32,000 bases of DNA from Pyrobaculum calidifontis JCM 11548 (GTDB taxonomy: Archaea; Thermoproteota; Thermoprotei; Thermoproteales; Thermoproteaceae), in assembly GCF_000015805.1 (NCBI RefSeq), contig NC_009073.1:1170001-1202000 (forward strand), read 5' to 3'. The translations under genes and the position numbers were made by a program. The notes beneath the pieces were generated by a model that worked only from the letters and a program-made list of their open reading frames with translations, did no database searches and had not been told where the DNA came from. Below, one piece after another: positions 15,255 to 32,000 of the stretch (positions are counted from its first letter, which is position 1; each line of letters starts with the position of its first letter).

Positions 15255-15816
15255 CTTTTCAAATCTCTTTTAGAGGTTCGCGCACTCTGTCGCAGTGAAG
15301 GCGGCCTGCGACACGTCGAATTCATTTCAATCCTCTTCTTGAGATTCCTTCGCCGTGGGTCTCGCGATTGGGTTCATTTTAGGTGGGGGCATAGCTTTCA
15401 ATCCTCTTCTTGAGATTCGGGTAATTAGGATATGGGAGGCCGCGGGTATGAAAAGATATGCTTTCAATCCTCTTCTTGAGATTCATACTAACGTGTCCGC
15501 ATATGAAACCTACGCATTAAGAGCTTTCAATCCTCTTCTTGAGATTCTCTATTTGTAAAGGGGCGAATTTACGCCGTTGTTAAACTATGTAAACTTTCAA
15601 TCCTCTTCTTGAGATTCCTCGCCCCGCCCGGGAGTGGGGGTACGACGGGGGCCGGGGTCGCTTTCAATCCTCTTCTTGAGATTCACCAGTTGACGAAGGT
15701 CTGGTCTCCGTGGTTGGACCAGTTCGAGAACTTTCAATCCTCTTCTTGAGATTCGCCAGCGCTCTCTCCAGAGCTGGCTTCCGCATTATCTGCTTTCAAT
15801 CCTCTTCTTGAGATTC
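15255..15816 (-). CRISPR. CRISPR array 1: 9 repeat copies (7 exact, 2 degenerate at the low-coordinate trailer end), 8 spacers
   Basis: The plus-strand repeat is CTTTCAATCCTCTTCTTGAGATTC (24 nt). Copies start at 15324 (C1 to A), 15395, 15461, 15524, 15594, 15661, 15731 and 15793. A fossil copy CTTTTCAAATCTCTTTTAGAGGTTC is at 15255-15279. Spacers are 38-47 nt. The strand is assigned because the reverse complement GAATCTCAAGAAGAGGATTGAAAG ends in the canonical 8-nt crRNA 5' handle ATTGAAAG. Confidence 0.95.
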
Positions 15817-18155: not shown

Positions 18156-20531
18156 CTTTTAATCCACTCCTAGAGATTCGGTATTAGATACGGTGACTGG
18201 TAAGGGGTTTGCCGTGATTACGTCCTTTCAATCCTCTTCTTGAGATTCTTGCCAAGTACGGCTTCGACGTTGAGGATATAATACCGTCGGTGGCTTTCAA
18301 TCCTCTTCTTGAGATTCCTACCCTTCCTCTCGATGGTGCCCTGGAGAGAGATACTCAGCTTTCAATCCTCTTCTTGAGATTCTCACTATAGGAAGCGGGG
18401 CTATACGGTAGATACATACTATGAGCTTTCAATCCTCTTCTTGAGATTCTGGCCACGTGGTGCATGGTTATGATAACCACGCCGAGGCGTTAGCTTTCAA
18501 TCCTCTTCTTGAGATTCTGTAGGTAGCTGTTTCCCCTTAACCCCCTCCTTAAGCCTTTGGTATCTTTCAATCCTCTTCTTGAGATTCGGTGGGTGGAGGT
18601 GGAGGTGCTATGACTGGCGAGTACGAGAGACTAACTTTCAATCCTCTTCTTGAGATTCTCGTGACAGTCAACGGCCCCTCCAGTGGGTGTGACAACGGCG
18701 CTTTCAATCCTCTTCTTGAGATTCATCTAGAGACTCGGTGGGGGTGTATATGTCCCACAGCTTCTTAACTTTCAATCCTCTTCTTGAGATTCCGCCAGGT
18801 CGGCGGCGGCCTTGTACACCCACCTCCTCACCTTCCGCTTTCAATCCTCTTCTTGAGATTCTGGGAGTCCACGCTTACGGATATCATTTTCACGTCGTTG
18901 TTCTTTCAATCCTCTTCTTGAGATTCTGCTTTATGACAAGAAGACACGTGGATGCGACCACAGTAGGAACTTTCAATCCTCTTCTTGAGATTCCTATAGG
19001 GGCAAAGTGCGCCTACTGTGCACTGATGTGGGGTGCATTGTCTTTCAATCCTCTTCTTGAGATTCGAGCGCACGTAAAGCGCTAGAGGGGGCGCGCACGT
19101 TCTTGCTAACTTTCAATCCTCTTCTTGAGATTCCGTCCCCCGTCGTCGCCAGGACAACGTCGTTGTTGGAGAAGCTTTCAATCCTCTTCTTGAGATTCCC
19201 ACAAACAATGCCCGCGCGCCTAGGCGCGCGCGGGAAAGCGCCTTTCAATCCTCTTCTTGAGATTCTGGTAAATGCACAGCGATTAATTCCATTTTTGCAC
19301 CAGTAGACTTTCAATCCTCTTCTTGAGATTCCCTCCACCTTCTCTGTCCTGGCGCTTAGGGGTCTCGTGGCTTTCAATCCTCTTCTTGAGATTCCTCTCA
19401 AGTCCACGTGGCGGGGCGCCAGCTCCTCAATACGCCCTTTCAATCCTCTTCTTGAGATTCCAAATCTACCGCCGTTATACTCAATCATAGCGGCATAGTA
19501 TCTTTCAATCCTCTTCTTGAGATTCTCCTAAAGCGACCCTCCTTGCAACACTTCGCCACTAGCCACAGCCTTTCAATCCTCTTCTTGAGATTCCCCCCCA
19601 CCTACCGATACGTGGCGCGTGGCCCCGTGGTGCTGCTTTCAATCCTCTTCTTGAGATTCTACCAGCTTGACGTAGGCGGTGCCAGGCACCACCTCGCCCT
19701 CGACTTTCAATCCTCTTCTTGAGATTCCTACACAGCCTCTATGTGCACTTGCCCCAGGCCTGGCTAAGTGCTTTCAATCCTCTTCTTGAGATTCCGCGCC
19801 GTGCATGTGGGCCGCATGGGCGCGCAAAATATGTAGTCTTTCAATCCTCTTCTTGAGATTCCCACGTCGAAACCCACGTGGGGGGCCAGAGCGTTGACTA
19901 GCCTTTCAATCCTCTTCTTGAGATTCGCGGGCGAGGGCCACAGACACGGTCTCGCTTATGGACGCGTCTTTCAATCCTCTTCTTGAGATTCGGCGCTTGT
20001 CTACCAAATCTCGATTGGCAAGAGACAAGTGCAACTTTCAATCCTCTTCTTGAGATTCCGAGGCCCACGGCGGCGAGTGCGACATCTATAGCCAGACCGC
20101 TTTCAATCCTCTTCTTGAGATTCATTACTGTGGACATGGCTCCTCGAATATCCGCCTTAACTGTGACTTTCAATCCTCTTCTTGAGATTCCAGCCACGGG
20201 TTAACCACCACTTGAAACAGTGTCACATATGCGTAAATGCTTTCAATCCTCTTCTTGAGATTCAGGTGCCTGTTTGCAGAAGGCTATGATGAACGCACTA
20301 TAAACGACTTTCAATCCTCTTCTTGAGATTCGACAAAATAGTCAACGGCTTTCAACACGACATATAGCTGTATACCTTTCAATCCTCTTCTTGAGATTCC
20401 GCTTATTGAAAAGCCAAGCGAGTACGCCCATATCGGCAGGCCTTTCAATCCTCTTCTTGAGATTCGGTGAAGGTGGCCACAGTGCTTAAGGCCCTGTGCA
20501 AAAAGCTCTTTCAATCCTCTTCTTGAGATTC
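18156..20531 (-). CRISPR. CRISPR array 2: 36 repeat copies (35 exact plus 1 degenerate trailer copy), 35 spacers
   Basis: Same 24-nt repeat as array 1. Exact copies start at 18225, 18294, 18359 ... 20442, 20508. A degenerate copy CTTTTAATCCACTCCTAGAGATTC (4 mismatches) is at 18156-18179. Repeat periods are 63-73 nt, giving spacers of 39-49 nt. Orientation is assigned as for array 1. Confidence 0.97.
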
Positions 20532-22515: not shown

Positions 22516-23304
22516 TCAGCAGGGCGTCTCTAGGGCGTCGATGAGGGCGGCTATGTGGGGCGCGAGGGTCCTCCGCCTGGCCTCCTCGGCCAGCACGCCG
22601 AGCTCCACGAGGTGGTGGGGGTCGACGCCCCACGCCTTGGCCAAGTCCTCGGGCTCCCCCTCGCCTCTCGCCACCTGCCTCGCGGTTGGGTGTAGGTCGA
22701 TGGGGAGGAGGCCTAGGCTGACTACGTCGCGGAAGCTCTCGTGGACGTAGAAGACGTCGAGGGCCCCCGCGAGGTAGGCCGCCACCACGGCGAAGGTGGA
22801 CTCCGGCTTGTAGCCCCCCGTGGCCACGACGTACGGATTCACGCCCCTCGCCTTGGCGCACTTGACGTCTCTCGCCACGGCCCTGGCCAGCTCCCCCAGT
22901 GACCTGGAGAAGTCCCGGCCCAGGCCCGGCACCACCTTCACCTCGGCGGCGCAGTCCTCCGTCGACACGCCCAGCTTGGCCAGCGCCCTGCAGAAGGCCC
23001 CCTCCAGCGCCCGCGCCGCAAGGCGGCCGGCCCCGGTGTCAGAGGCGTAGAGGGCGGCCCTCACCCGCCTAAAGAGGGCGGGCCACCTCTTCGCCACCTT
23101 AGCCACAGTGTTCAACTCCGCGCAACACCTCTCGGGGTCCGCCACGGCGAACTCCACCAGCCTCTCCACGGGGCCCCGCTCCGCCTCCTCCTGCCTCGGG
23201 TCGTCCGGCGCCAGCCTTGACCAAACCTCGGGGACAATCCCCTCCCTAGCCGCGTTAGCCAAGATAGACGTCCCCACGGTAATTGCAAAGAAGCTCGGCT
23301 TCAT
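22516..23304 (-). CDS. CARF-domain-only protein (APE2256/Csm6-N-like family) with C-terminal helical/wHTH-like tail; candidate ring nuclease or cOA sensor
   Basis: ORF 22516..23322, trimmed to ATG 23304, because minus-strand TTTTTTATAG (23332-23323) abuts ATG 23322. Motifs: FFAITVGTSIL (GTS), CAELNT and VVATGGYKPES. No HEPN or other nuclease motif is present. Confidence 0.65.
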   Translation of the reverse strand: MKPSFFAITVGTSILANAAREGIVPEVWSRLAPDDPRQEEAERGPVERLVEFAVADPERCCAELNTVAKVAKRWPALFRRVRAALYASDTGAGRLAARALEGAFCRALAKLGVSTEDCAAEVKVVPGLGRDFSRSLGELARAVARDVKCAKARGVNPYVVATGGYKPESTFAVVAAYLAGALDVFYVHESFRDVVSLGLLPIDLHPTARQVARGEGEPEDLAKAWGVDPHHLVELGVLAEEARRRTLAPHIAALIDALETPC

Positions 23305-23583
23305 GCCACCCGTACTGCCCATCTATAAAAAAGTTAAAAGAGGTAGCCCCCACCCTGAGGTTCGCCTCAGCGACCACAATTCAATCGCCAGACTTACATT
23401 GGCACAGAGTCCATGTATGTTTTCTGTAGGTCATACAACGCCGCTCCCCTTGGCATAGGGGCGCTCAAGATGCTTATTCACACAATTTTCTCACGAGCAA
23501 CAAGCTAAAGTCCTTCTTAATTTAAGTAGTTCTATTCTGCGTACTTGCCATCACGCAGTAGAAGTCTCCTACTGCTATACTTG

Positions 23584-24489
23584 TCATTTTTCGTCTTCTA
23601 CGGTGGCAAGAATAGCTACCTCTGGGAAGTGCGGTATCCACTCCATAGACTCCACCAGGCTGGTCCTGAGGTCTATTTCTCGCGCGTCTCTGCGCACTTC
23701 TCTGCTCATTAGATAGATCTTAGTCCACTTCCTCGTTGCGCCTCTTATGAAGTCTATGTTGTGCGTAGAAGCTACGAAAAACAGCTTGGCCCCCCGCTCC
23801 TCTGCCCTCTTTGTGAGAACGGCGGCGAGGTGGCCGAGGAAGAAGGCTTGTAGCGGCCCGGCGTGGGCCTCCGGCTCTTCGACGAAGAGGTAGACTGGCC
23901 TTTCCCCGGTTGCAGCGTAGGCGTATTTGAGCCCCGCGGCCACCATGGCGGCGGAGAGGCCTGCCGGGAGTTGGCGTAGCCCCGCCCCCGAAGGGCCTGC
24001 GCGGTCTCTCCAGCGGATTTCCCCGCCGTCTACCGCCAGCTCGATGGGCAGTAGGTCGGCCGCGTCGGCCTTTAGCCCCATCTCTCTTATTGCCCTCTCC
24101 ATACGCGCCAGCTCCTCCTCCACTGCGGCTTCTGCCTCTGCCAAGAGCTTTGGATCGGCGAGGCGCCTCATTGAGAGAAGCGCCTTAAGCCCCCTCGGCT
24201 TTAGCGCAAATCCGCCGGAGGTCTCTGTCCCAATTTCTGCGAATTTGGCAACGGATCTGTAGGCGTCTAGGAAGAAGACGTGTCCCCTCTCCTCCGTGCA
24301 CCTCGCCGCTGTCTCTGGGCACTCCAGCTCCGCTGGTCCTCCCAGCGCCCTGGCTATACTGCACAGCGTAAGCGACTTGCCCGAGGCGTTTGGCCCAACG
24401 AAGAGGGTGACGGGGGCCAGCTCCACCTCCGCGTCCAGCGCCACTGTCCACCCGCCAAGCTGGAACTTTGCAGAGACTCTGCACGTCAT
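23584..24489 (-). CDS. Stand-alone ABC/RecF-like (AAA_15/21-type) ATPase, translationally coupled to cmr3
   Basis: Walker A FVGPNASGKSL, signature-like QLPAGLSAAM, Walker B with DEPE-type tail VYLFVEEPEAHAGP, and H-loop FVASTHN. Its ATG 24489 overlaps the cmr3 stop as ATGA. Confidence 0.8.
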   Translation of the reverse strand: MTCRVSAKFQLGGWTVALDAEVELAPVTLFVGPNASGKSLTLCSIARALGGPAELECPETAARCTEERGHVFFLDAYRSVAKFAEIGTETSGGFALKPRGLKALLSMRRLADPKLLAEAEAAVEEELARMERAIREMGLKADAADLLPIELAVDGGEIRWRDRAGPSGAGLRQLPAGLSAAMVAAGLKYAYAATGERPVYLFVEEPEAHAGPLQAFFLGHLAAVLTKRAEERGAKLFFVASTHNIDFIRGATRKWTKIYLMSREVRRDAREIDLRTSLVESMEWIPHFPEVAILATVEDEK

Positions 24490-25328
24490 GGAAGTCTGGC
24501 GAGAGCCCCGTAGCCCAGCTCGCCTAGGAAGAACTGGGACTGGTCGCAGTTCTCCACCTCTACCTCAGTGCCAGGTGGCAGGGCGGGGTACATGGGCCTC
24601 CTCTCTCTGCACACCTCGCTGAAGCCGAGACCCCACTGCACCACTTTCACCTTCGGCTCCTCTCCCGGCTGTTCTAAGCCTCTCACAGCCCTTATGCAAC
24701 TGGGCAACTCTCCCTCTGGCATGAGGAGGGGCGTGAGCAACACGGCGGCGCCGCTCTTGGGCGGCAGGTAGGGGTCGGGCCTCAGCTCTGGGTCCGCCTC
24801 CACCGCGGCCAGCCGGCCCTCTCCGCCTAGCCTCACCAGGCCCGTGGGCACCACGTCGGCGTCTATGAAGTAGACGGCCTCCACCGGGGCGTAGTAGGTT
24901 GCCCTGTAGAGGTAGCCCTGCGCCGCCGTCTTATGCTCAGTCAACATGAGACCTATTCTCGAGAACTTTGCCACCGGCACACCCCCCGCCGCCTCACCGC
25001 GCTCTCTAGGCGCCCACATGTGCGTCTTAATCCAGCCCTCAGCCGCCGCGCCCACCAGCACTTCGGAACCCCTACGCACCACGGCGAGGGGCCCCCACAC
25101 CCTCCTCACCCCAAGCGCCTTAGCCACCTCCCTAAGCGCCGCAAGCGCGCCCTCCGGCCCCTTCCCCGGGCAGTCTATCTTCACGCCAGCGAGATACCCT
25201 AAGGCGCCCAGCAACGTGGAGGGCTGCGGCACTATCCACACGTCGTCTCTCGTCACCGTCCCCGGCGTAGACAGCGGCCTAGTGCCGTAGTGAGTTGGAC
25301 CCAGAGGCCTAATTCTAACCGCCCTCAT
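24486..25328 (-). CDS. cmr3: Cmr3 (type III-B RAMP subunit)
   Basis: ATG 25328 overlaps the cmr2 stop as ATGA (the track's alternative is GTG 25334). The N-terminus MRAVRIRPLGPTHYGTRPLS...PQPSTLLGALGYLAG and the position after cmr2 are typical of Cmr3. Confidence 0.75.
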   Translation of the reverse strand: MRAVRIRPLGPTHYGTRPLSTPGTVTRDDVWIVPQPSTLLGALGYLAGVKIDCPGKGPEGALAALREVAKALGVRRVWGPLAVVRRGSEVLVGAAAEGWIKTHMWAPRERGEAAGGVPVAKFSRIGLMLTEHKTAAQGYLYRATYYAPVEAVYFIDADVVPTGLVRLGGEGRLAAVEADPELRPDPYLPPKSGAAVLLTPLLMPEGELPSCIRAVRGLEQPGEEPKVKVVQWGLGFSEVCRERRPMYPALPPGTEVEVENCDQSQFFLGELGYGALARLP

Positions 25329-27949
25329 ATCCACGCCCTAAGAGCCTTCAGTAGCTCGACGGCGTTCTTCCACTTCTCCCCGCGCCCATCTACGTAGCAC
25401 GCCGCCTCCACCACCTTGTCGGCGAGCTCCTTCTTGTCCGTGTTTCTGCCTACCAAGTACCGCAGGACGTACTCCACCTCCGCCGCCTCTCCCCACGCCT
25501 CGACGTCGTAGGGCAGATTTCTGCCGAGAGTCCTCCTGGCGTAGGCCTCGGCGATTGCCTTAACGCTCCCCACCGCGCTCACCTTGGTAAACCCCACGTG
25601 GCCCGTAGAGGTGGAGATAGCCAAGGCGTCTTTGCCCGGCACCCTATCCTTCGCCTCGTCGAGCAACTCAGCCGCCTTGTCCACCTCCACAGACATCATG
25701 TCTGTCACCGCGTGGGCAACCCTAAGCGAGTAGCTTCTGCCATATGCGGTGAGGGCGGGGAGGAAGTAGCTCTCCGACAACGAGTGGAAGCCCCCCTCCC
25801 CCCAGTAGTTCTCTCTAGTCTCCTTTACAATGTCAAACGAGGGGGGCTTAGCCGAGAAGGCCAGCAAGTCGTCGCCCCCGGCGAAGACCAGCTCTCCCTG
25901 GCTTTTTTCCACAATGGCGGCGTCGCCTATGGCTGTGACCATAAGCGCCGCAGAAACAGCGGCGTAGTAGGCCGGGCTTGGAACAACTAGGTAGCCCCCA
26001 CCGCAGATGTGCTTCGCGGTCTCGCGCATAGCTCCAAGAACTCTCAACGCGTGCTTCATATCTTTTTCAAACTGTTCCCTGTCTCTCACGACTTCCACGT
26101 CTTGGGGCATCTGCGGCTCCTTAGGCAGACACCCCCTGAGAAGCTTGCCCACGTTGTCCCCATCTGCCCTAATAACGACGTACTCAAGCCCCGGCGTCCA
26201 AGGCTCTTCTCCAGCCCCCTTACACTCGGCCAGCCGCCTATCCGCCGCCTCGGAGGAGCCGAAGACGTCCTCAACATCTTCACCGTCTAAGACTCTCTCC
26301 ACAAGCCCCTTGATCTCTCGACACCTTTCACTGTCGAAATAATGCTTAAGGTAGTAGTAGTTGAGCGCTACCACTTCCACAGAGTCAATGCCAGCTCTCT
26401 TGGCAGATCTGAGGTAGAGCGCCCTCTTTATCAGGTCCACGGGGCCCAGCGCCTCCTTCGGCTTAAACACCTTAGTCAAGTTTGCGTCTTTTTTCTCTTC
26501 AATTCCCAGCGACTTGAGCCAGCTATGTGTCTCGTCGTCGTATGTCAAATTGCCGTCTTTAAACACGCCGCCGAATTTCACCACGGCGGGCTGGCTTGGG
26601 TCAAGGCTACTGTGCATCCAAGTTCCCTTATAGGTCTGAGAGAACCTCGGCCGACCCTCCTTGTCGAACCAGCTGGGGTACTTCGGCAGGGCCCTCCTCT
26701 TTCTCTCGTTGACCATCTCCAACAGCCTGGCAAAGAGAAACCTCCTTAAGTCCCCGCCTAGTAGCTTCTTCACCTCATCGTCTATGCCGAACCTCTCCGT
26801 CGTCCACTTCTCGAGATTTCTCAGACCCTCTTCCACATACGCAACTGCGACTCTGATGGGGAGATAACGTACCGACTCCAGGCCCTTGAGCCCCGCCTCC
26901 ACGACCCTCTTTACGCCATCATCTAGCCCCCCTAGGTCAAAGGGGAGGTTTGGCGCCTCCCCTCCCCTAGCGGCCTCCAACACCTCTTTTAAAACCTCGT
27001 CGAAGTAGGAGTAGGCCTCGTCTTCCCCCTTGCACTCCGGCAGGGCGAGGTAGAGAGTGCCGGGGAACAGCGACGACCTTCTAATCAACCCGTGGAGCCA
27101 TTCGTCCACTGGCAATTGCTGGCTTACGCCGAACTTCTTTCCCACGTAGTAGGACATGGCCCCGGCGTATAGCCCCCACACTCCCTTTACCCTTCTGTCG
27201 AGCTGGGCGTAGAAGAGCGGGTTGAAGCGCGGCGTTGGGGAGAGCAGGATGTCGGGCCCGTGTCTCTCCATAAACCGCCACGCGACGCGCCAGGCCACGA
27301 GGGAGACTAGGAGGCTCCCGGCGCGGTAGTCCCCAGCCTTACGCGCAGACTTCAAGATAGACTGGATGCCCGGCAGATCTACCACCATTAGGCACCCCCC
27401 GCCCCTCGTCCAGTTCAACATAGAGGCGGTGGCGTAGAGGTGGTCGAAGATGGAGTGGGTGGGGACTCTTGTGTCCGCCGGTAGCGTGGGCAGGCCGGCC
27501 TTAATCCACGCCAGCTCGTACGCGGCGTAGAATGCGAAGTAGAGCCACCTCTCGTCGCCCTTCGCCGCCTCCAGCACCCTCCTCACCTCCCCCACGAACT
27601 TCCCCAGCCTCTCCCTAAACTCCTGGGGGGTCGGCTTCTTGATTTCTCTCCGCTCTCGGCCAAAGGGGTTTATCATGTACTTGGCCTTCACCCAGTAGTT
27701 GCCCGGGCTCGGGGGGAGGGCCCACCGGTCAAAAGACGCGGCGAGGCGGTCGGCCTCGGCCACGGCCGCGCTCTCTTCGCTCCCTGGAACTCCGCCGAAG
27801 CCCATGCCCTTGAAAATTTCGTCGAAGAGCTTCGCGGCCTCCTCTTCGTGGCTGTTTTTGTCGTAGACCCGGTAGTCCGCGTCCTCGAACCACAGGGCCT
27901 TGTGCGGCGGGTCGTGGAGTAGTGCAAATGATTTTAAAAACCAGTTCAC
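25325..27949 (-). CDS. cmr2: Cmr2 / Cas10 (type III-B large subunit) with N-terminal HD motif and GGDD cyclase motif
   Basis: GTG start. The N-terminus is FALLHDPPHKALW (HD). The first palm domain is VVIRADGDNVGKLL and the second is ELVFAGGDDLLAF (GGDD). 874 aa. Confidence 0.9.
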   Translation of the reverse strand: MNWFLKSFALLHDPPHKALWFEDADYRVYDKNSHEEEAAKLFDEIFKGMGFGGVPGSEESAAVAEADRLAASFDRWALPPSPGNYWVKAKYMINPFGRERREIKKPTPQEFRERLGKFVGEVRRVLEAAKGDERWLYFAFYAAYELAWIKAGLPTLPADTRVPTHSIFDHLYATASMLNWTRGGGCLMVVDLPGIQSILKSARKAGDYRAGSLLVSLVAWRVAWRFMERHGPDILLSPTPRFNPLFYAQLDRRVKGVWGLYAGAMSYYVGKKFGVSQQLPVDEWLHGLIRRSSLFPGTLYLALPECKGEDEAYSYFDEVLKEVLEAARGGEAPNLPFDLGGLDDGVKRVVEAGLKGLESVRYLPIRVAVAYVEEGLRNLEKWTTERFGIDDEVKKLLGGDLRRFLFARLLEMVNERKRRALPKYPSWFDKEGRPRFSQTYKGTWMHSSLDPSQPAVVKFGGVFKDGNLTYDDETHSWLKSLGIEEKKDANLTKVFKPKEALGPVDLIKRALYLRSAKRAGIDSVEVVALNYYYLKHYFDSERCREIKGLVERVLDGEDVEDVFGSSEAADRRLAECKGAGEEPWTPGLEYVVIRADGDNVGKLLRGCLPKEPQMPQDVEVVRDREQFEKDMKHALRVLGAMRETAKHICGGGYLVVPSPAYYAAVSAALMVTAIGDAAIVEKSQGELVFAGGDDLLAFSAKPPSFDIVKETRENYWGEGGFHSLSESYFLPALTAYGRSYSLRVAHAVTDMMSVEVDKAAELLDEAKDRVPGKDALAISTSTGHVGFTKVSAVGSVKAIAEAYARRTLGRNLPYDVEAWGEAAEVEYVLRYLVGRNTDKKELADKVVEAACYVDGRGEKWKNAVELLKALRAWI

Positions 27950-27981
27950 AAAGCTTAAAACTGTTACATTTTTTATAGTTT
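27950..27981. promoter_or_regulatory. 32-bp bidirectional promoter between cmr2 and cmr4
   Basis: TTAAAA (27955-27960) lies 22-27 nt upstream of cmr4 ATG 27982. CTATAAAAAA on the minus strand (27978-27969) lies about 24 nt upstream of cmr2 GTG 27949. Each TATA-like element sits next to the start codon of the opposite gene. Confidence 0.5.
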
Positions 27982-28902
27982 ATGAACGGCAAATTGATGT
28001 GGATACTGTCGCTCACCTCTCTACACCCAGGCGTGGGTAGGAGCGAGGAGGCCCAGGTGGACCTCCCCGTCCAGCGGGACGAGTTCGGCCTGCCCACAAT
28101 ATGGGCGTCGTCCCTCAAGGGCGCCATTAGGAGCCGGATAGAGAAGACGCTCTTCAACAACGGGGTCTGCGTCGGCGACAAAGGCGAGTGCGCCACCTTC
28201 CTCGCCGCCTTTGGCCCACGCCCCGACGCCGCCCACGAACACGCCTCGGGCGTCGTCTTCCTAGACGCAAAACTCGTGGCAATCCCCGCCAGGTCGCTGA
28301 GGGGGGTATGGCTGTGGGCCACCTCCCCCATGTTGCTGAACTTCGTGAAGCTCTACGCAAAGGCCCTAGGCGTCGATGTACAACTGCCGCAGCCCCCCGC
28401 CGTGAAGGAGGGCCAAGTAGCGCTCACAAGCGGCGACTACGCCATAGACGGCAAACTCGCGGTAATAAACGAGATGGAGTTCGAAGTCGCCACAACCCAA
28501 GCCCCACCCCTCAACCTACCGCCCATCAAGGCCGCAACCCAGATAGTGGGGACGCGAGGCGTGGCGTACCTCCACGACAACGACCTCCTACAGGTAGTGA
28601 AGAGGAGCCTCCTCGTCCAATACCGCGTTAGGCTAAACGAGAAAAAGACAGTAGAGACTGGGCCATGGAGCGAGGAGTACATACCACCATTCACAGTCTT
28701 CGCCTCAGGCATATACTGCGCCAGAAAGCCAGACAAGGTAAAGGTAAAACTCCCCAAGAAAGAGGGGCAAGATCAACACCCAGTGGAGGAGGTCGACGTG
28801 AAGGGAGACCTCTGCCAGTACGTGGCTGGGAAGGCCAGCGGCGTCTTCTGGCTCGGCGGAAAGGAGACTGTGGGAAAGGGCCTGGCGGAGGTGATATGGT
28901 AG
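27982..28902 (+). CDS. cmr4: Cmr4 (type III-B backbone RAMP / target-RNA-cleaving subunit)
   Basis: LTSLHPGVGRSEEAQVDLPVQRDEFGLPTIWASSLKGAIRS carries the Cmr4/Csm3 signature, including the conserved Asp context VDLPVQRD. The C-terminal G-rich loop is LGGKETVGKGL. Confidence 0.88.
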   Translation: MNGKLMWILSLTSLHPGVGRSEEAQVDLPVQRDEFGLPTIWASSLKGAIRSRIEKTLFNNGVCVGDKGECATFLAAFGPRPDAAHEHASGVVFLDAKLVAIPARSLRGVWLWATSPMLLNFVKLYAKALGVDVQLPQPPAVKEGQVALTSGDYAIDGKLAVINEMEFEVATTQAPPLNLPPIKAATQIVGTRGVAYLHDNDLLQVVKRSLLVQYRVRLNEKKTVETGPWSEEYIPPFTVFASGIYCARKPDKVKVKLPKKEGQDQHPVEEVDVKGDLCQYVAGKASGVFWLGGKETVGKGLAEVIW

Positions 28903-29336
28903 ACTGGCTAGAAAAGGCAATCAAGTGCGTAGAGCTTGTAGAGAGGCACTGCGACAATGAGGCAAAAAAGGCGTTTCGGACTAGGGCACGGCAGATGCCC
29001 TCTGAGCTCTACTACGTCGGGGCCCCCTACGCCTTGGCCATCCTAGCGGCTAGGTCCAGCGAGAGGCACATTTTCACAGGCAAGAGCCTGGAGGAGTCCA
29101 TAGCGGCAGTATGCAAGGCGTCGGAATTGGGCAATGAGGATAAGGGGTACGCCGTCTACGGCCTCTGCCTTGTGGATGCGTTGCAGGAGCTGGGGATAAG
29201 GGCCGAGAGCCTCACTTCTACCCTCAGAGAGTTGAACAAGCTTAGAGGCGTGGCCGAGGCCCGCCTAGCCGAGTTCGTAGACTGGGTCAAAAAACTCGCC
29301 GAGGCGAAGTTCGAGCTTGTCAAGCATGAGAGCTGA
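28896..29336 (+). CDS. cmr5: Cmr5 (type III-B small subunit)
   Basis: ATG 28896 overlaps the cmr4 stop, in the frame of track ORF 28665..29336. It is a 146-aa helical protein (MVDWLEKAIKCVELVERH...QMPSELYYVGAPYALAILAAR) between cmr4 and cmr1. Confidence 0.7.
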   Translation: MVDWLEKAIKCVELVERHCDNEAKKAFRTRARQMPSELYYVGAPYALAILAARSSERHIFTGKSLEESIAAVCKASELGNEDKGYAVYGLCLVDALQELGIRAESLTSTLRELNKLRGVAEARLAEFVDWVKKLAEAKFELVKHES

Positions 29337-30375
29337 ATTCGAGGTAACGATAGCGACCCCCCTCTCCGCGGGCTGGTACGACCCCGCCCTAGTGGACAGA
29401 AACTTCTACATCCGCCCCACGGAGATCAAAGGAGTGTGGCGGTGGTGGGCTAGGGCCTTCGCCGCCGGCGCCCTGTACGAGGCGGGTTGCACAGGCCCAG
29501 ACTTCCTCAGGCGGGTACACGAAATTGTGGCAGAGAGACTTGGCCTAGGCTCCACCAAAGCCGCCTCGCGGTACGACCTCACAGTGGAGGTGCTGGAGAG
29601 GCCCAGAGTAGTCGACAGCTCGAGGGAAAATCTCCAGCGATTTAGGCTATTGAATCTTGGCAGAAGAAAGGGAAGACCTGCAGTTGAATATGCGATTGGT
29701 GGGAGATTCAAAATAATTCTAGAGGGTGACGCTGATATCCAATTAGTTGCATCCATATTAGCAGTAGCTCTAACCCTCTCGGGCATAGGCAAGGGAGGCC
29801 GTAAAGCACTTGGGTCTCTTGATATTATCAGAGTCTCTGGGGCCGCACCCCGACGCCCGCTAAATGAAATAATAAACGAGATAAGACGACAAATATCAGT
29901 ACAACGATGTGGGCCTCCTAGGGAACTCCCCAAGATTTCTGCTGTGTCGAATGAGGTATTTGAAGTATACAAAGTGAACGTGGACTTCCATCATCTTCAT
30001 AATATGTTCCTAAGATCAGAAAGAGCTAGAATGGCAAAGTTGTACTACGCCGCACCAGACCCGCTTAATCAAAAGGCATGGTTCCTTGGCCTACCAAGAG
30101 AGCAGAAGGGCACAGGCTATCATATCAACGACATAGAGGTGAAGAGAAGGGCTTCGCCTATCTTTGTTGCGTGGCATTCCATCCAGCATGTATTCGGAGG
30201 CGGAGGCTATATTTCCATATTTCTCTCGCAAGATTGGCCTACTCAACTTACTTGGGTAGGAGAGAGCGGTAGAAAACTAATTCAGATAAATGAACAAACG
30301 CTCCGAGATGCCAAGTCGGCCTTCCTTGCTCTCTTAAACCAATTCGGGTGGAAGCCGCAGAGGGTATGGCCCTAG
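29326..30375 (+). CDS. cmr1: Cmr1 (type III-B RAMP subunit)
   Basis: ATG 29326 overlaps the cmr5 stop (the track's alternative is TTG 29317). FEVTIATPLSAGWYD...IRPTEIKGVWRWWARAF is the Cmr1 signature, and the G-rich loop is SGIGKGGRKALGSL. Confidence 0.8.
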   Translation: MRAEFEVTIATPLSAGWYDPALVDRNFYIRPTEIKGVWRWWARAFAAGALYEAGCTGPDFLRRVHEIVAERLGLGSTKAASRYDLTVEVLERPRVVDSSRENLQRFRLLNLGRRKGRPAVEYAIGGRFKIILEGDADIQLVASILAVALTLSGIGKGGRKALGSLDIIRVSGAAPRRPLNEIINEIRRQISVQRCGPPRELPKISAVSNEVFEVYKVNVDFHHLHNMFLRSERARMAKLYYAAPDPLNQKAWFLGLPREQKGTGYHINDIEVKRRASPIFVAWHSIQHVFGGGGYISIFLSQDWPTQLTWVGESGRKLIQINEQTLRDAKSAFLALLNQFGWKPQRVWP

Positions 30376-31070
30376 CCTGCCTCAGACCGGGCTACAACAT
30401 CTACAGTTGCGTAGTGAGGCACATCATCAGCGCTTACGAGGGCCCCGGGTCTCCAAAGTTCACAGAACTAAGTAATCAAATTACAGTTGAGCTAAAGGAT
30501 GTGAAAATTGACACGGCCCCCATCTCCGCCTACCTGATGTACCTAGAGGAGAAGCTCAAGGGAGGCTCCCTCGTGGCGCGGATAGAGGCAGAGGTGACCA
30601 CCCCCCTCGTCGTCCACGTGAGAAACCCCTACATGCCCCTGGAGATAGGCCTGGCGTGGCACCCCTACTTCAACGCCCCCTACATCCCCGCCACCACCAT
30701 AAAGGGAGCCCTCAGGGCGTACTCCCCGCCCCAGATCTGCGGAAGGCCGGCCGCAGAGGTCTTTGGCACAGTAGGCGACCAAGGCGCACTAATAGTGACA
30801 GACGCCCTCCCCATAACCCCAGACGTGTTGGGCGCCGACGTGATAACCCCCCACTACAAAGAGCCAGACCAGGTAGAAGAACACAAGGTGAGACCGATCC
30901 CCATAGTCTTCCCCGTGGTAAAGCCCGGCGCGAGATTCGCCTTCCACATAGCCTCCACAGAGCTAGAACAGCGGTGCCTCTCCGAGATATGGCCAGCCAT
31001 AGACAGAGCCTTCGCAAAAGGCATAGGAGCAAAGACAAAGATAGGCTATAGCAGACTCAAAAAACTATAA
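30366..31070 (+). CDS. cmr6: Cmr6 (type III-B RAMP subunit)
   Basis: ATG 30366 overlaps the cmr1 stop (the track's alternative is GTG 30348). Motifs: IPATTIKGALRAY, VITPHY and the C-terminal GIGAKTKIGYSRLK G-rich loop. It is shorter (234 aa) than the Cmr6 proteins I remember. Confidence 0.75.
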   Translation: MALACLRPGYNIYSCVVRHIISAYEGPGSPKFTELSNQITVELKDVKIDTAPISAYLMYLEEKLKGGSLVARIEAEVTTPLVVHVRNPYMPLEIGLAWHPYFNAPYIPATTIKGALRAYSPPQICGRPAAEVFGTVGDQGALIVTDALPITPDVLGADVITPHYKEPDQVEEHKVRPIPIVFPVVKPGARFAFHIASTELEQRCLSEIWPAIDRAFAKGIGAKTKIGYSRLKKL

Positions 31071-31094
31071 AAGCATTAGCGTGAGAATCAGACT

Positions 31095-31919
31095 ATGAAA
31101 CTCAAAGTGCAAAACCTTAAGCACATTACCGAGGCTGTGCTGGAAGGCGACAGAATCATCTTATATGGTCCTAATGGCGGGGGCAAGTCCACGCTGATAC
31201 ACACTGTGGCCCTAATCCTTGGGGCCGCTCTCGGAGTAAAGGCCCACGACGAAAATATTATAAACCAAGGGGACTTCCACGACGACACATACGTGAGGTT
31301 TGAAGATTTCGACGTGTTTGAGATCAGACAACGTAAGCTGTGGTGGAGGGGGAGAGCCTACCCCCTCACGGAGCCCCTTAAAGTCGCAGACTTCTCTCTA
31401 TGGCATATAACCGAGTCCTATTTCGCCATATACGGTAGAGTTCCGCAGTGCTTGGGCGACCCCATTGAGGGAGTTCCCTCGGGCGTCATAGGATACAGCT
31501 ACTTTGATATAAGAGTGCTTTGTCCAGCGGCAGCTGAAGCCTCGGAAGACCTTTTTAAAATCTACTACAATGTGGCCGAGATAGGACTCGACGGAGCGAC
31601 GACGTGGACTACGCTGTCCCGCCTCTCCTACGGCCAGAGGAGGGCCATCGTTATCCTCGCCGCCCTCGAGCTCGGCGGTTATGTCTTAATTGAAAACTTG
31701 GAGTCCGGTCTCCACCTCGATTTACTAGTGTATGTGCTTAACGCCGCCTCGGTTTCAAAGGGCAAAGTTATTGCAGAGACCCACAGCGGATTAGCCCTTA
31801 AGCTAGCTGTAAAATACGGTATACAGCCATACTACGTTGAAAGAAGCGTAGAGAAGATAACAAACTTTGACATCAAGTTATTTAAGCGTGAAGCAGAAGT
31901 TTTTTCATCCTTAATATGA
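31095..31919 (+). CDS. Second stand-alone ABC/RecF-like (AAA_15/21-type) ATPase, last gene after cmr6
   Basis: Walker A ILYGPNGGGKSTL, signature LSYGQRRAIVIL, Walker B YVLIENLESGLHLD, and H-loop VIAETHSG. TATA-like CTATAAAAG (31065-31073) overlaps the cmr6 stop about 25 nt upstream of ATG 31095. Confidence 0.8.
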   Translation: MKLKVQNLKHITEAVLEGDRIILYGPNGGGKSTLIHTVALILGAALGVKAHDENIINQGDFHDDTYVRFEDFDVFEIRQRKLWWRGRAYPLTEPLKVADFSLWHITESYFAIYGRVPQCLGDPIEGVPSGVIGYSYFDIRVLCPAAAEASEDLFKIYYNVAEIGLDGATTWTTLSRLSYGQRRAIVILAALELGGYVLIENLESGLHLDLLVYVLNAASVSKGKVIAETHSGLALKLAVKYGIQPYYVERSVEKITNFDIKLFKREAEVFSSLI

Positions 31920-32000
31920 GACTTACTACTAATATAAAAACTCTAAGAGGTCTATCCATCTATATACAAAATAAAAATGTAAACTCTCTAAAATGTAGTG

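What the first reader, a model, noticed from the sequence alone, without database searches (positions are those of the whole stretch)
31095..31919. Second, divergent ABC/RecF-type ATPase ending the cmr4-5-1-6 operon, with its own embedded TATA
This 274-aa protein has the same architecture as the ATPase at 23584-24489: GPNGGGKST, LSYGQRRAI, IENLESGLH and ETHS. I can only align the two at the motifs, so they are an old paralogue pair or independent recruits. Unlike ATPase 1, it is separated from cmr6 by 24 nt. A TATA-like CTATAAAAG overlaps the cmr6 stop about 25 nt upstream of its ATG, so it may be expressed independently. A spot count of one 60-nt line (31261-31320) gives 47% G+C, below the 60% line counted in the 5' part of cmr1 (29401-29460). 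AT-rich sequence follows to the window end (31920-32000). This may mark the border of the cassette.
Basis: partly seen in the sequence, partly recalled or inferred. Interest (0 to 1): 0.65.

Follow-up and report, generated by a model that had tools for sequence, protein, structure and literature searches.

The report
Known Cmr-linked ABC ATPase, not operon end
The gene is a real ATP-binding protein of a class already catalogued as an accessory of archaeal type III CRISPR systems. It does not close the operon: a likely small nuclease gene and a known partner gene follow it, and the function of all three is still unknown.

Summary
The 274-aa ORF at 31095-31919 and its motifs, 24-nt spacer, TATA-like box and G+C counts are all as described. 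The window is Pyrobaculum calidifontis, chromosome 1,170,001-1,202,000. The protein is a short ABC-type ATPase (Pfam AAA_21) under purifying selection (dN/dS about 0.15).

The claim that it ends the operon and marks the cassette border is wrong. The AT-rich tail (31916-32000) is the start of a 147-aa gene that overlaps the ATPase stop codon. A 181-aa gene follows, and then a CRISPR array.

The 181-aa protein matches the PADLOC model cas_RFas (E 1.8e-92). This places the ATPase in the published "Cas_RecF plus RFas" accessory class of crenarchaeal type III systems. The 147-aa protein is Cys-rich and is predicted to have a PD-(D/E)xK nuclease fold.

ATPase, small protein and RFas recur after cmr6 in Pyrobaculum and Thermoproteaceae, and inside Cmr loci of Sulfolobales. 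The first ATPase (23584-24489) belongs to a different subfamily and here has no partner.

In this family a small residue replaces the canonical catalytic glutamate after Walker B. The most likely role is the nucleotide-switch subunit of an ATPase-nuclease accessory module. The class is known and its mechanism is untested.

The parts
31095..31919 (+). ATPase 2: a 274-aa ABC-type ATPase (AAA_21 / Cas_RecF class). Walker A is at 31167-31193, the signature LSYGQ at 31623-31637, the Walker B strand plus E200-N201 at 31680-31697, and the H-loop ETHS at 31776-31787.
   Evidence: ORF. Pfam AAA_21 at 7.5e-13. Best solved relative by sequence is AriA, 1.5e-10. AF2 pLDDT 84.5, with an SMC/PtuA/OLD-type head fold. 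dN/dS about 0.15.
31065..31073 (+). TATA-like box CTATAAAAG overlapping the cmr6 stop codon, at -30 to -22 from the ATPase 2 ATG. It is a possible internal promoter for a leaderless ATPase 2 / 147-aa / 181-aa transcript.
   Evidence: Sequence. TATAAAA is enriched, 6 found against 1.1 expected, and sits before several gene starts. The same box at the same spacing precedes cas10. AT-rich boxes occur at the same position in orthologous loci. No transcript evidence.
31916..32000 (+). 5' end (first 28 codons) of the next gene. It encodes a 147-aa Cys-rich protein with a predicted PD-(D/E)xK nuclease-like C-terminal half. Its ATG overlaps the ATPase 2 stop codon (ATGA). The gene is cut by the window end.
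   Evidence: Identical metagenome contigs L006-L009 continue the sequence. tblastn places residues 1-28 at 31916-31999. AF2 pLDDT 84, and the Foldseek top hits are restriction-endonuclease-fold nucleases. D69/E82/K84 motif.
27982..31070 (+). cmr4 (27982-28902), cmr5 (28896-29336), cmr1 (29326-30375) and cmr6 (30366-31070): the operon onto which the ATPase module is appended.
   Evidence: Pfam RAMPs and Cas_Cmr5. Gene calls on the identical contig L006.
23584..24489 (-). ATPase 1: a 301-aa ABC-type ATPase of a different Cas_RecF subfamily. It is translationally coupled to cmr3 (ATGA overlap). It has no RFas partner here.
   Evidence: ORF. Weak AAA_23/AAA_15 hits. Family alignment A2. Relatives carry cas_RFas partners PDLC01064/01065. 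There is no ORF and no tblastn trace of a partner in 23323-23583.
24486..27949 (-). cmr3 (24486-25334) and cas10/cmr2 (25325-27949), divergent from cmr4.
   Evidence: Pfam Cas_Cmr3, Cmr2_N and Cas10 palm2.

Best explanation
ATPase 2 is the nucleotide-binding subunit of a conserved three-gene accessory module attached to type III-B (Cmr) CRISPR loci of Crenarchaeota. The module is an ABC ATPase of the Cas_RecF class, then a small Cys-rich PD-(D/E)xK-like nuclease, then a cas_RFas protein.

**Proposed mechanism**
- The ATPase forms ATP-sandwich head-to-head dimers or higher oligomers. It has an intact Walker A, an LSYGQ signature and an H-loop.
- Because the canonical catalytic glutamate is missing, ATP probably acts as a binding switch rather than as fuel.
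- By analogy with ABC-ATPase/nuclease defence pairs (PARIS AriA-AriB, Septu PtuA-PtuB, Gabija, OLD, Rad50-Mre11), the ATPase would hold, position or license the small nuclease. This would give the Cmr system an extra nucleic-acid-degrading arm.

**Shown here:** fold and family, motif state, gene order and overlaps, conservation, purifying selection, and the RFas identity of the third gene.

**Inferred only:** complex formation, nuclease activity, and any functional coupling to Cmr.
For: **Family and fold**
- Pfam AAA_21 scores 49.6 bits. The best PADLOC hit is AriA, 9.4e-13. The best solved relative by sequence is AriA, 1.5e-10.
- The AF2 model matches SMC head, PtuA, OLD, RecN, Rad50 and GajA.

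**Operon structure**
- The ATPase stop codon overlaps the start of the 147-aa gene. The 147-aa and 181-aa genes overlap by 7 nt. A CRISPR leader follows.

**Synteny**
- An ATPase 2 orthologue lies directly after cmr6 in P. oguniense, four Pyrobaculum, Thermoproteus and Thermoproteaceae MAG loci, and in metagenome contigs.
- Both small genes follow the ATPase in the L001, L002-L004, L016, L018 and L006 lineages.
- More distant family members (E about 1e-26 to 1e-29) in Saccharolobus caldissimus and in a metagenome contig again lie inside Cmr loci, each followed by two small genes.

**Partners**
- The 181-aa protein matches cas_RFas PDLC01095 at E 1.8e-92.
- The model of the 147-aa family gives PD-(D/E)xK nucleases as almost all top Foldseek hits.
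- Positional homologues in distant loci carry canonical motifs, PD-x15-ELK and D-x13-ECK.

**Walker B**
- E200-N201 aligns to the D-E of AriA's Walker B.
- Across 64 family representatives, none of the residue types tallied at this position (top six, covering 59 of 64) is Glu: they are G, N, A, S, D or T.

**Selection:** dN/dS is 0.15.

**Literature:** Cas_RecF and RFas were reported as co-evolving accessories of crenarchaeal type III systems (PMC3973734, PMC6546367). The PARIS mechanism is described in PMC11464382.
Against: - No experiment exists for any member; only three papers use the name.
- The nuclease assignment is weak. Foldseek E-values are 0.006-0.3, there is no Pfam or PADLOC hit, and the Lys of ExK is not conserved in all orthologues.
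- One orthologous locus (L013) has the ATPase without the two small genes, and P. oguniense has a solo paralogue. The ATPase may therefore work without them.
- A more distant relative (L022/L023) is not in a CRISPR locus.
- All syntenic loci were retrieved through the ATPase or its partners, so how often Cmr cassettes lack the module was not measured.
- Loss of the catalytic Glu is inferred from alignment. E203, or another residue, could substitute.
Confidence: 0.55

Rival explanations
1. The ATPase is an extra subunit or assembly/recycling factor of the Cmr effector complex itself, comparable in status to Cmr7. It would use ATP binding to load, remodel or release Cmr from target RNA. On this view the small proteins are secondary.
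For: - It follows cmr6 with only about 12-24 nt of spacer in the Thermoproteaceae loci examined.
- In L019 a 68%-identical homologue follows cas10 with a 4-nt overlap.
- L013 keeps the ATPase but not the small genes.
- Shah et al. suggested that ATPases might supply energy for type III cleavage.
Against: - In Saccharolobus and in L021 the ATPase and its two small genes form their own divergent operon, separate from the cmr genes.
- The ATPase is translationally coupled to the small genes, not to cmr6.
- The catalytic Glu is absent, which argues against an energy-supplying motor.
- Relatives occur outside CRISPR loci.
- Characterised Cmr complexes need no ATPase (general knowledge).
Confidence: 0.15
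2. It is an autonomous PARIS/AbiL/Septu-like abortive-infection module (ATPase plus nuclease) that sits in the defence island and has no functional link to Cmr.
For: - The best PADLOC hits are AriA, AbiLi and NsnB.
- It has a possible own promoter.
- A family member in L022/L023 lies in a non-CRISPR island with a McrB-like AAA_5 protein, MCM and NurA/HerA.
- The 147-aa gene has foreign-looking composition, 33% G+C.
Against: - The position directly after cmr6 holds across several genera. Sulfolobales relatives lie inside Cmr loci.
- The RFas partner is a family described as CRISPR-specific and co-evolving with type III modules.
- There are no hits in the phage or plasmid collections.
Confidence: 0.2
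3. It is a housekeeping protein: a RecF-type DNA repair ATPase or the ATP-binding subunit of an ABC transporter.
For: - Pfam ABC_tran scores 27.1 bits against a cutoff of 25, and there are weak SMC_N and RecF hits.
Against: - RecF TIGR00611 scores 21.7 bits against a cutoff of 172. All transporter equivalogs fall far below their cutoffs, and most cover only the P-loop region.
- There is no membrane partner gene.
- The close family has only 11 representative clusters and a narrow taxonomic range.
- All six family members whose loci were checked, apart from the distant P0189 (L022/L023), lie in type III loci.
Confidence: 0.03

Closest known systems
Cas_RecF (cluster 17) with cas_RFas partners, accessory genes of crenarchaeal type III CRISPR systems (Vestergaard et al. 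2014, PMC3973734; Shah et al. 2019, PMC6546367)
   Same: - It is an SMC/RecF-like ABC ATPase encoded within or next to type III modules of Thermoproteales and Sulfolobales.
- It is accompanied by small proteins with no database matches.
- The 181-aa protein two genes downstream matches the PADLOC cas_RFas model PDLC01095 at E 1.8e-92. It fits the description of cluster 108: about 180 aa, subtype III-B, thermoneutrophilic Crenarchaeota, with an example (Pcal_0278) from this same genome.
- Partners of ATPase 1 relatives match the two other cas_RFas models.
   Different: - ATPase 2 is 274 aa, against the roughly 330 aa quoted for cluster 17.
- It is separated from its RFas by a Cys-rich nuclease-like gene that the papers do not describe and that has no PADLOC model.
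- ATPase 1 in this window has no RFas at all.
- Neither the missing catalytic Glu nor a nuclease partner was noted in those papers.
- Sequence membership in cluster 17 itself could not be checked, because neither a model nor a reference sequence was available.
PARIS AriA-AriB (ABC ATPase plus TOPRIM nuclease; PDB 8ux9, 8v45; PMC11464382)
   Same: - AriA is the best solved relative by sequence (E 1.5e-10) and the best PADLOC hit.
- It is in the same AAA_21 family and has a small nuclease partner encoded just downstream.
- ATPase 2 naturally resembles the E-to-Q trapping mutant used for AriA structures (8v46).
   Different: - AriA is 464 aa and has a coiled-coil insertion. ATPase 2 is 274 aa, and its region between Walker A and the signature motif is beta-rich.
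- The partner here is PD-(D/E)xK-like, not TOPRIM/DUF4435.
- There is a third gene (RFas).
- The context is a CRISPR locus rather than a phage satellite or defence island.
- It is archaeal.
Septu / retron PtuA-PtuB, Gabija GajA and OLD nucleases (ABC ATPase plus HNH or TOPRIM nuclease)
   Same: - They are among the top structural matches: PtuA TM about 0.55, and OLD and GajA E about 1e-6.
- They share the logic of an ABC ATPase controlling a nuclease.
   Different: - The nuclease types differ.
- Those ATPases are much larger and have dimerisation or coiled-coil inserts.
- They have the canonical D-E Walker B.
- They are not linked to CRISPR.
Cas ABC ATPase plus sRRM pair of Sulfolobales type III/I loci (Vestergaard et al. 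2014)
   Same: - It is an ABC ATPase always accompanied by a protein of about 150 aa near crenarchaeal type III systems.
- The Saccharolobus relative of ATPase 2 (L020) may belong here.
   Different: - No reference sequence was available, so the assignment is untested.
- No RRM domain was detected in any partner.

Membership tests
Cas_RecF / cas_RFas accessory module of crenarchaeal type III systems | ABC/SMC/RecF-type ATPase domain | tested here: met
   AAA_21 scores 49.6 bits, with weak SMC_N and RecF hits. The AF2 model matches SMC head, RecN and Rad50.
Cas_RecF / cas_RFas accessory module of crenarchaeal type III systems | Encoded within or adjacent to a crenarchaeal type III interference module | tested here: met
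   It lies 24 nt after cmr6 in the window. The position is the same in 6 other distinct loci. Distant members lie inside Cmr loci.
Cas_RecF / cas_RFas accessory module of crenarchaeal type III systems | Accompanied by a cas_RFas small protein | tested here: met
   For ATPase 2, the 181-aa protein two genes downstream (outside the window, on the identical contig L006) hits cas_RFas PDLC01095 at E 1.8e-92. For ATPase 1 in this window the feature is not met: there is no partner ORF or trace, although its relatives have PDLC01064/01065 partners.
Cas_RecF / cas_RFas accessory module of crenarchaeal type III systems | Sequence membership in the published cluster 17 (examples VMUT_1481, P186_0874) | not testable with these tools
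   PADLOC and Pfam hold no Cas_RecF model. The papers' supplements are not held, and the reference sequences could not be fetched.
Pfam AAA_21 (PF13304) | Score above the gathering cutoff | tested here: met
   49.6 bits against a cutoff of 27.
Canonical catalytically active ABC ATPase | Walker B hhhhD followed by the catalytic Glu | tested here: not met
   The motif is YVLI-E200-N201, which aligns to VLID-E of AriA. It is invariant in 11 close homologues. Across 64 family representatives, none of the residue types tallied at this position (top six, covering 59 of 64) is Glu. Walker A, the LSYGQ signature and the H-loop are intact.
PARIS (AriA-AriB) | AriB-type TOPRIM/DUF4435 nuclease partner | tested here: not met
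   The downstream proteins have no TOPRIM or DUF4435 hit in Pfam or PADLOC. The model of the first one resembles PD-(D/E)xK nucleases.
RecF (TIGR00611) | Score above the NCBIfam equivalog cutoff | tested here: not met
   21.7 bits against a cutoff of 172, covering residues 2-71 only.
ABC transporter nucleotide-binding subunit | Equivalog-level match and an adjacent membrane permease gene | tested here: not met
   PF00005 is just above its cutoff (27.1 against 25). All NCBIfam transporter equivalogs are far below their cutoffs. The neighbours are cmr6 and two small soluble proteins.
PD-(D/E)xK nuclease (for the 147-aa partner) | Restriction-endonuclease core fold with a D...(D/E)xK motif | tested here: inconclusive
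   AF2 pLDDT is 84. The Foldseek top hits are R.BspD6I, Cdn1, FokI, Hjc, Hef and RecU, but with E 0.013-0.3. The viral library gives Mrr, restriction endonucleases and resolvases at E at or above 0.006. D69 and E82 are conserved while K84 varies. Canonical PD..ELK and D..ECK motifs occur in distant positional homologues. There is no Pfam hit.

The most novel reading that the evidence does not exclude
The ATPase 2 family, which lacks the catalytic glutamate in the representatives examined, is not an ATPase at all. Instead it is a nucleotide sensor: it closes around ATP, or around a Cas10-made adenylate signal, and thereby releases or activates the small Cys-rich PD-(D/E)xK nuclease. This would be a CARF- and SAVED-independent effector arm of type III-B CRISPR immunity in Crenarchaeota.
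Probability: 0.1. Interest if true: 0.75.

Novelty: already known. Interest (0 to 1): 0.35.

Why it matters
Cas_RecF and RFas are among the accessory gene sets most strongly associated with type III systems (association scores 67-89 in Shah et al.), and they have no known function.

Three observations here turn a bare catalogue entry into a concrete, testable model:
- The module has three genes.
- A predicted small nuclease sits between the ATPase and RFas.
- The ATPase family lacks the canonical catalytic glutamate.

The model is an ATP-switched nuclease attached to Cmr, parallel to PARIS and Septu in bacteria.

For the scan itself, the result is mainly a correction. The gene is an ordinary member of a described accessory class. 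The supposed cassette border is an artefact of where the window ends.

Tried and rejected
- **Close paralogy of the two ATPases.** Rejected: BLASTP finds only the P-loop, and hhalign gives probability 17%.
- **RecF or transporter identity.** Rejected on curated cutoffs.
- **A decayed RFas gene after ATPase 1.** There is no ORF and no tblastn trace in 23323-23583.
- **Homology between the 147-aa and 181-aa families.** hhalign probability is 0.1%.
- **Sequence-profile searches of the PDB with both small-protein families.** Nothing significant.
- **Pfam and PADLOC on the 147-aa family and on the small partners in Sulfolobales loci.** No hits.
- **Phage and plasmid collections searched with ATPase 2.** No match.
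- **Metagenome scan with the RFas alignment.** It returned only two loci, both like L016.
- **Two name look-ups of distant family members.** Almost all are unnamed metagenome proteins.
- **Supplementary tables of the two survey papers.** They are not held, so locus tags (inferred as Pcal_1282 and Pcal_1288) and cluster membership could not be verified.
- **The sigma-70 promoter scanner.** Not used, because it does not apply to archaea.
- **An unbiased survey starting from cmr6 for cassettes lacking the ATPase.** All syntenic loci were found through the ATPase or its partners.
Full report
**Where the window comes from**

The 24-nt repeat GAATCTCAAGAAGAGGATTGAAAG forms two arrays, at window 15324-15816 and 18225-20531. 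Bernick et al. 2012 list Pyrobaculum calidifontis Crispr4 ending at 1185816 and Crispr5 ending at 1190531. Both ends fit an offset of exactly 1,170,000.

The gene order also matches that paper's second Cmr module: csx1, csm6, cmr3, cas10, cmr4, cmr1, cmr6, then Crispr6 (Pcal_1280-1287). ATPase 2 occurs on a 2,009,313-bp contig. The window is therefore P. calidifontis JCM 11548, 1,170,001-1,202,000. The two ATPases would be Pcal_1282 and Pcal_1288. Those tags are my inference and were not verified. Bernick et al. do not list either gene.

**Checking the observation**

The ORF 31095-31919 (+) encodes 274 aa and carries all four quoted motifs. The cmr6 stop codon is at 31068-31070, which gives a 24-nt spacer. 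CTATAAAAG lies at 31065-31073. The G+C spot counts are right: 46.7% and 60.0%, with 49.6% for the whole gene.

The gene is real:
- Pfam AAA_21 scores 49.6 bits against a cutoff of 27.
- Ten to eleven homologues keep Walker A, LSYGQ, the Walker B region and ETHS invariant or nearly so.
- dN/dS against two orthologues is 0.15, the same as cmr6 at 0.14.
- The AlphaFold model has pLDDT 84.5 and pTM 0.86.

The two ATPases can only be aligned at motifs. BLASTP finds the P-loop alone, and profile-profile comparison gives probability 17%.

Metagenome contigs identical to the window (L006-L009) continue past its end. The ATG of a 147-aa gene overlaps the ATPase stop codon (ATGA, window 31916). The AT-rich "border" is the first 28 codons of that gene.

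A 181-aa gene follows with a 7-nt overlap. About 450 nt further on lie the conserved Pyrobaculum CRISPR promoter (AAAAACTTAAAAA) and the array Crispr6 (promoter as described). The cassette therefore runs about 1 kb beyond the window and ends at a CRISPR array.

The low G+C is a property of the 147-aa gene (31-35%). The 181-aa gene returns to about 60%. G+C also dips to 45-47% inside cmr1. Composition therefore does not mark a boundary.

**What the gene is**

By sequence, the nearest solved protein is the PARIS ATPase AriA (E 1.5e-10), and the best PADLOC model is also AriA. By structure, the model matches ABC heads of the SMC, RecN, Rad50, PtuA, OLD and GajA kind, with TM about 0.5. It has no coiled coil. 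The region between Walker A and the signature motif is beta-rich.

RecF and transporter equivalogs fail their cutoffs by a wide margin.

In the alignment to AriA, E200 falls on the Walker B aspartate and N201 on the catalytic glutamate. The third AriA entry in that output is the E-to-Q trapping mutant.

An exhaustive profile search found 1047 representatives at E up to 1e-3, 87 at up to 1e-10 and 11 at up to 1e-30. I aligned 64 full-length members. The motif is h-h-h-[IV]-E-[G/N/A/S]-F-E-x-G-L-H-x-D. None of the residue types tallied at the catalytic position (the top six, covering 59 of 64 sequences) is Glu. ATPase 1, by contrast, has E-E-P-E and so keeps that glutamate.

**Synteny**

An ATPase 2 orthologue follows cmr6 directly in these loci:
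- P. oguniense (L001)
- Pyrobaculum MAGs (L002-L005, L013)
- a Thermoproteus MAG (L014)
- a Thermoproteaceae MAG (L016)
- metagenome contigs (L017, L018)

In L019 a 68%-identical copy follows cas10 instead.

ATPase 1 follows cmr3 only in the window's own genome. Its relatives are about 329 aa and sit beside Csm2/RAMP modules, each with small Cys-rich partners.

The ATPase, a Cys-rich protein of about 140 aa and a protein of about 185 aa occur together in five lineages. The two small genes are missing in L013, where a convergent 947-aa helicase-like gene follows the ATPase. P. oguniense also has a solo paralogue, Pogu_1164.

Three more distant family members were sampled:
- One in Saccharolobus caldissimus and one in a metagenome contig lie inside Cmr loci. 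Each forms a separate operon of an ATPase plus two small genes.
- The third lies in a non-CRISPR island with a McrB-like ATPase, MCM and NurA/HerA.

One caveat applies to all of this. Every locus was found through the ATPase or its partners. I therefore did not measure how many Cmr cassettes lack the module.

**The partners**

The 181-aa protein matches the PADLOC model cas_RFas PDLC01095 at E 1.8e-92. The P. oguniense and L016 orthologues match it as well. Partners of ATPase 1 relatives match the two other cas_RFas models, which are annotated "cluster 17 associated".

Both ATPases therefore belong to the class that Vestergaard et al. 2014 and Shah et al. 2019 named Cas_RecF (cluster 17) with RFas partners (clusters 83, 84 and 108). 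Those authors described the class as a co-evolving accessory of crenarchaeal type III systems with unknown function. The example given for cluster 108 is Pcal_0278, from the other Cmr module of this same genome.

I found no later work on these proteins.

The 147-aa family has no Pfam or PADLOC model. Its features are:
- Conserved cysteines: C27, C32, C43-45, C58, C72 and a C-terminal Cys.
- A D69...E82-x-K84 motif.
- An AlphaFold model with pLDDT 84.
- Foldseek top hits that are almost all PD-(D/E)xK nucleases: R.BspD6I, Cdn1, FokI, Hjc, Hef and RecU. The E-values are weak, 0.013-0.3. The viral library agrees, returning restriction endonucleases, Mrr and resolvases.
- Positional homologues in the distant Cmr loci with canonical PD-x15-ELK and D-x13-ECK motifs.

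I regard the nuclease assignment as likely but not established.

**Promoter**

TATAAAA occurs six times in the window against 1.1 expected. Four of the six lie just upstream of gene starts: csx1, the CARF gene, cas10 and ATPase 2. The cas10 gene has CTATAAAAA at -31 to -23, and ATPase 2 has CTATAAAAG at -30 to -22.

Eight of nine ATPase 2-type gene starts examined have an octamer with at least 7 A/T in the scanned interval -36 to -18; L016 has 6 of 8. Background frequencies for boxes of equal A/T content are 2-16%. A separate, leaderless ATPase-nuclease-RFas transcript is therefore plausible. It also fits the separate operon seen in Sulfolobales. There is no transcript evidence, and read-through from cmr4 is not excluded.

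**Mechanism and rivals**

The best-supported reading is a three-gene accessory module. In it, a nucleotide-switch ABC protein dimerises on ATP and holds or licenses a small nuclease, as in PARIS (PMC11464382), Septu and Gabija. RFas would be a third, unknown component.

The rivals are:
- A Cmr-bound subunit or remodelling factor. Tight linkage to cmr6 and to cas10, and the solo copies, support this.
- An autonomous abortive-infection pair that merely sits in the island. The non-CRISPR relative and the foreign-looking nuclease gene support this.

Housekeeping roles are effectively excluded.

**Verdict**

The family-level interpretation is correct. The operon-end and border interpretation is wrong. 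The class is already catalogued.

Beyond the published catalogue, three points stand out:
- The nuclease-like middle gene.
- The family-wide loss of the catalytic glutamate.
- The fact that the two ATPases in one Cmr locus represent the two different Cas_RecF/RFas sub-types, one of them orphaned.

Noticed in passing
L006 10822-11265 (= window 31916 onward); also L017 4273-4716 and L018 984-1418: The 147-aa Cys-rich gene has 33-37% G+C, between an ATPase gene at about 50% and an RFas gene at about 60-64%. Between L006 and L018 it is 39% identical at the protein level, while the flanking ATPase and RFas are 70% and 89% identical. This mosaic suggests cassette-like replacement or very fast evolution of the middle gene.
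   Followed up: partly
window 27950-27981: The cas10-cmr4 divergent intergenic region is only 32 nt and holds two opposed TATA-like boxes, each about 26 nt from the start codon it would serve. This fits back-to-back leaderless promoters.
   Followed up: partly
window 23323-23583 and 23584-24489: ATPase 1 has no RFas partner. A 260-nt stretch with no credible ORF follows it. It carries a deletion of about 28 aa in the helical insert and has LPAG in place of the family's LSTG signature. These differences are shared with an 83%-identical metagenome homologue, so it is probably not a fresh pseudogene.
   Followed up: partly
window 23584-24489 versus L011 2371-3360: A 40-aa block (EEPEAHAGPLQAFFLGHLAAVLTKRAEERGAKLFFVASTH) is identical in ATPase 1 relatives that are otherwise about 50% identical. 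At the nucleotide level the block is 92.5% identical, against 67% just upstream. This looks like a recombination or gene-conversion tract.
   Followed up: partly
window 15324-15816 and 18225-20531: There are two CRISPR arrays (8 and 35 repeats of a 24-nt unit, minus orientation). Their end coordinates match P. calidifontis Crispr4 and Crispr5 of Bernick et al. with an offset of 1,170,000, which identifies the source of the window.
   Followed up: yes
window 22516-23322 (-): The CARF (Cas_APE2256) ORF probably starts at its second Met (M7). Gene callers give 262 aa. The TATAAAA box at 23324-23330 then lies at about -27 from that start, instead of abutting the first ATG.
   Followed up: no
window 28896-29336: A cmr5 gene (Pfam Cas_Cmr5, E 4e-4, just under the cutoff) lies between cmr4 and cmr1. 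It is absent from the published gene list for this module, which goes from Pcal_1285 (cmr4) to Pcal_1286 (cmr1).
   Followed up: no
L019 1-2304: A 68%-identical ATPase 2 homologue follows a cas10 gene directly with a 4-nt overlap, instead of following cmr6. This is a different wiring of the same parts.
   Followed up: no
L001 10001-10825 (P. oguniense Pogu_1164): A second, solo ATPase 2-type paralogue (36% identity) lies about 0.4 kb downstream of the ATPase/small-protein/RFas trio and just before a CRISPR array. It has its own TATA-like box, CATATAAAT, at about -29 to -21.
   Followed up: no
L013 8841-11684 (-): In the one locus where the ATPase lacks both small partners, a convergent 947-aa SF2 helicase-like gene (motifs STGSGKT and DELD) lies immediately downstream.
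   Followed up: no
L022 2076-8075: A distant family member (E about 1e-19) sits outside any CRISPR locus. It follows a McrB-like AAA_5 gene and is followed by two very small genes (117 and 95 aa). MCM and NurA/HerA genes are nearby, which suggests an integrated element or defence island.
   Followed up: no
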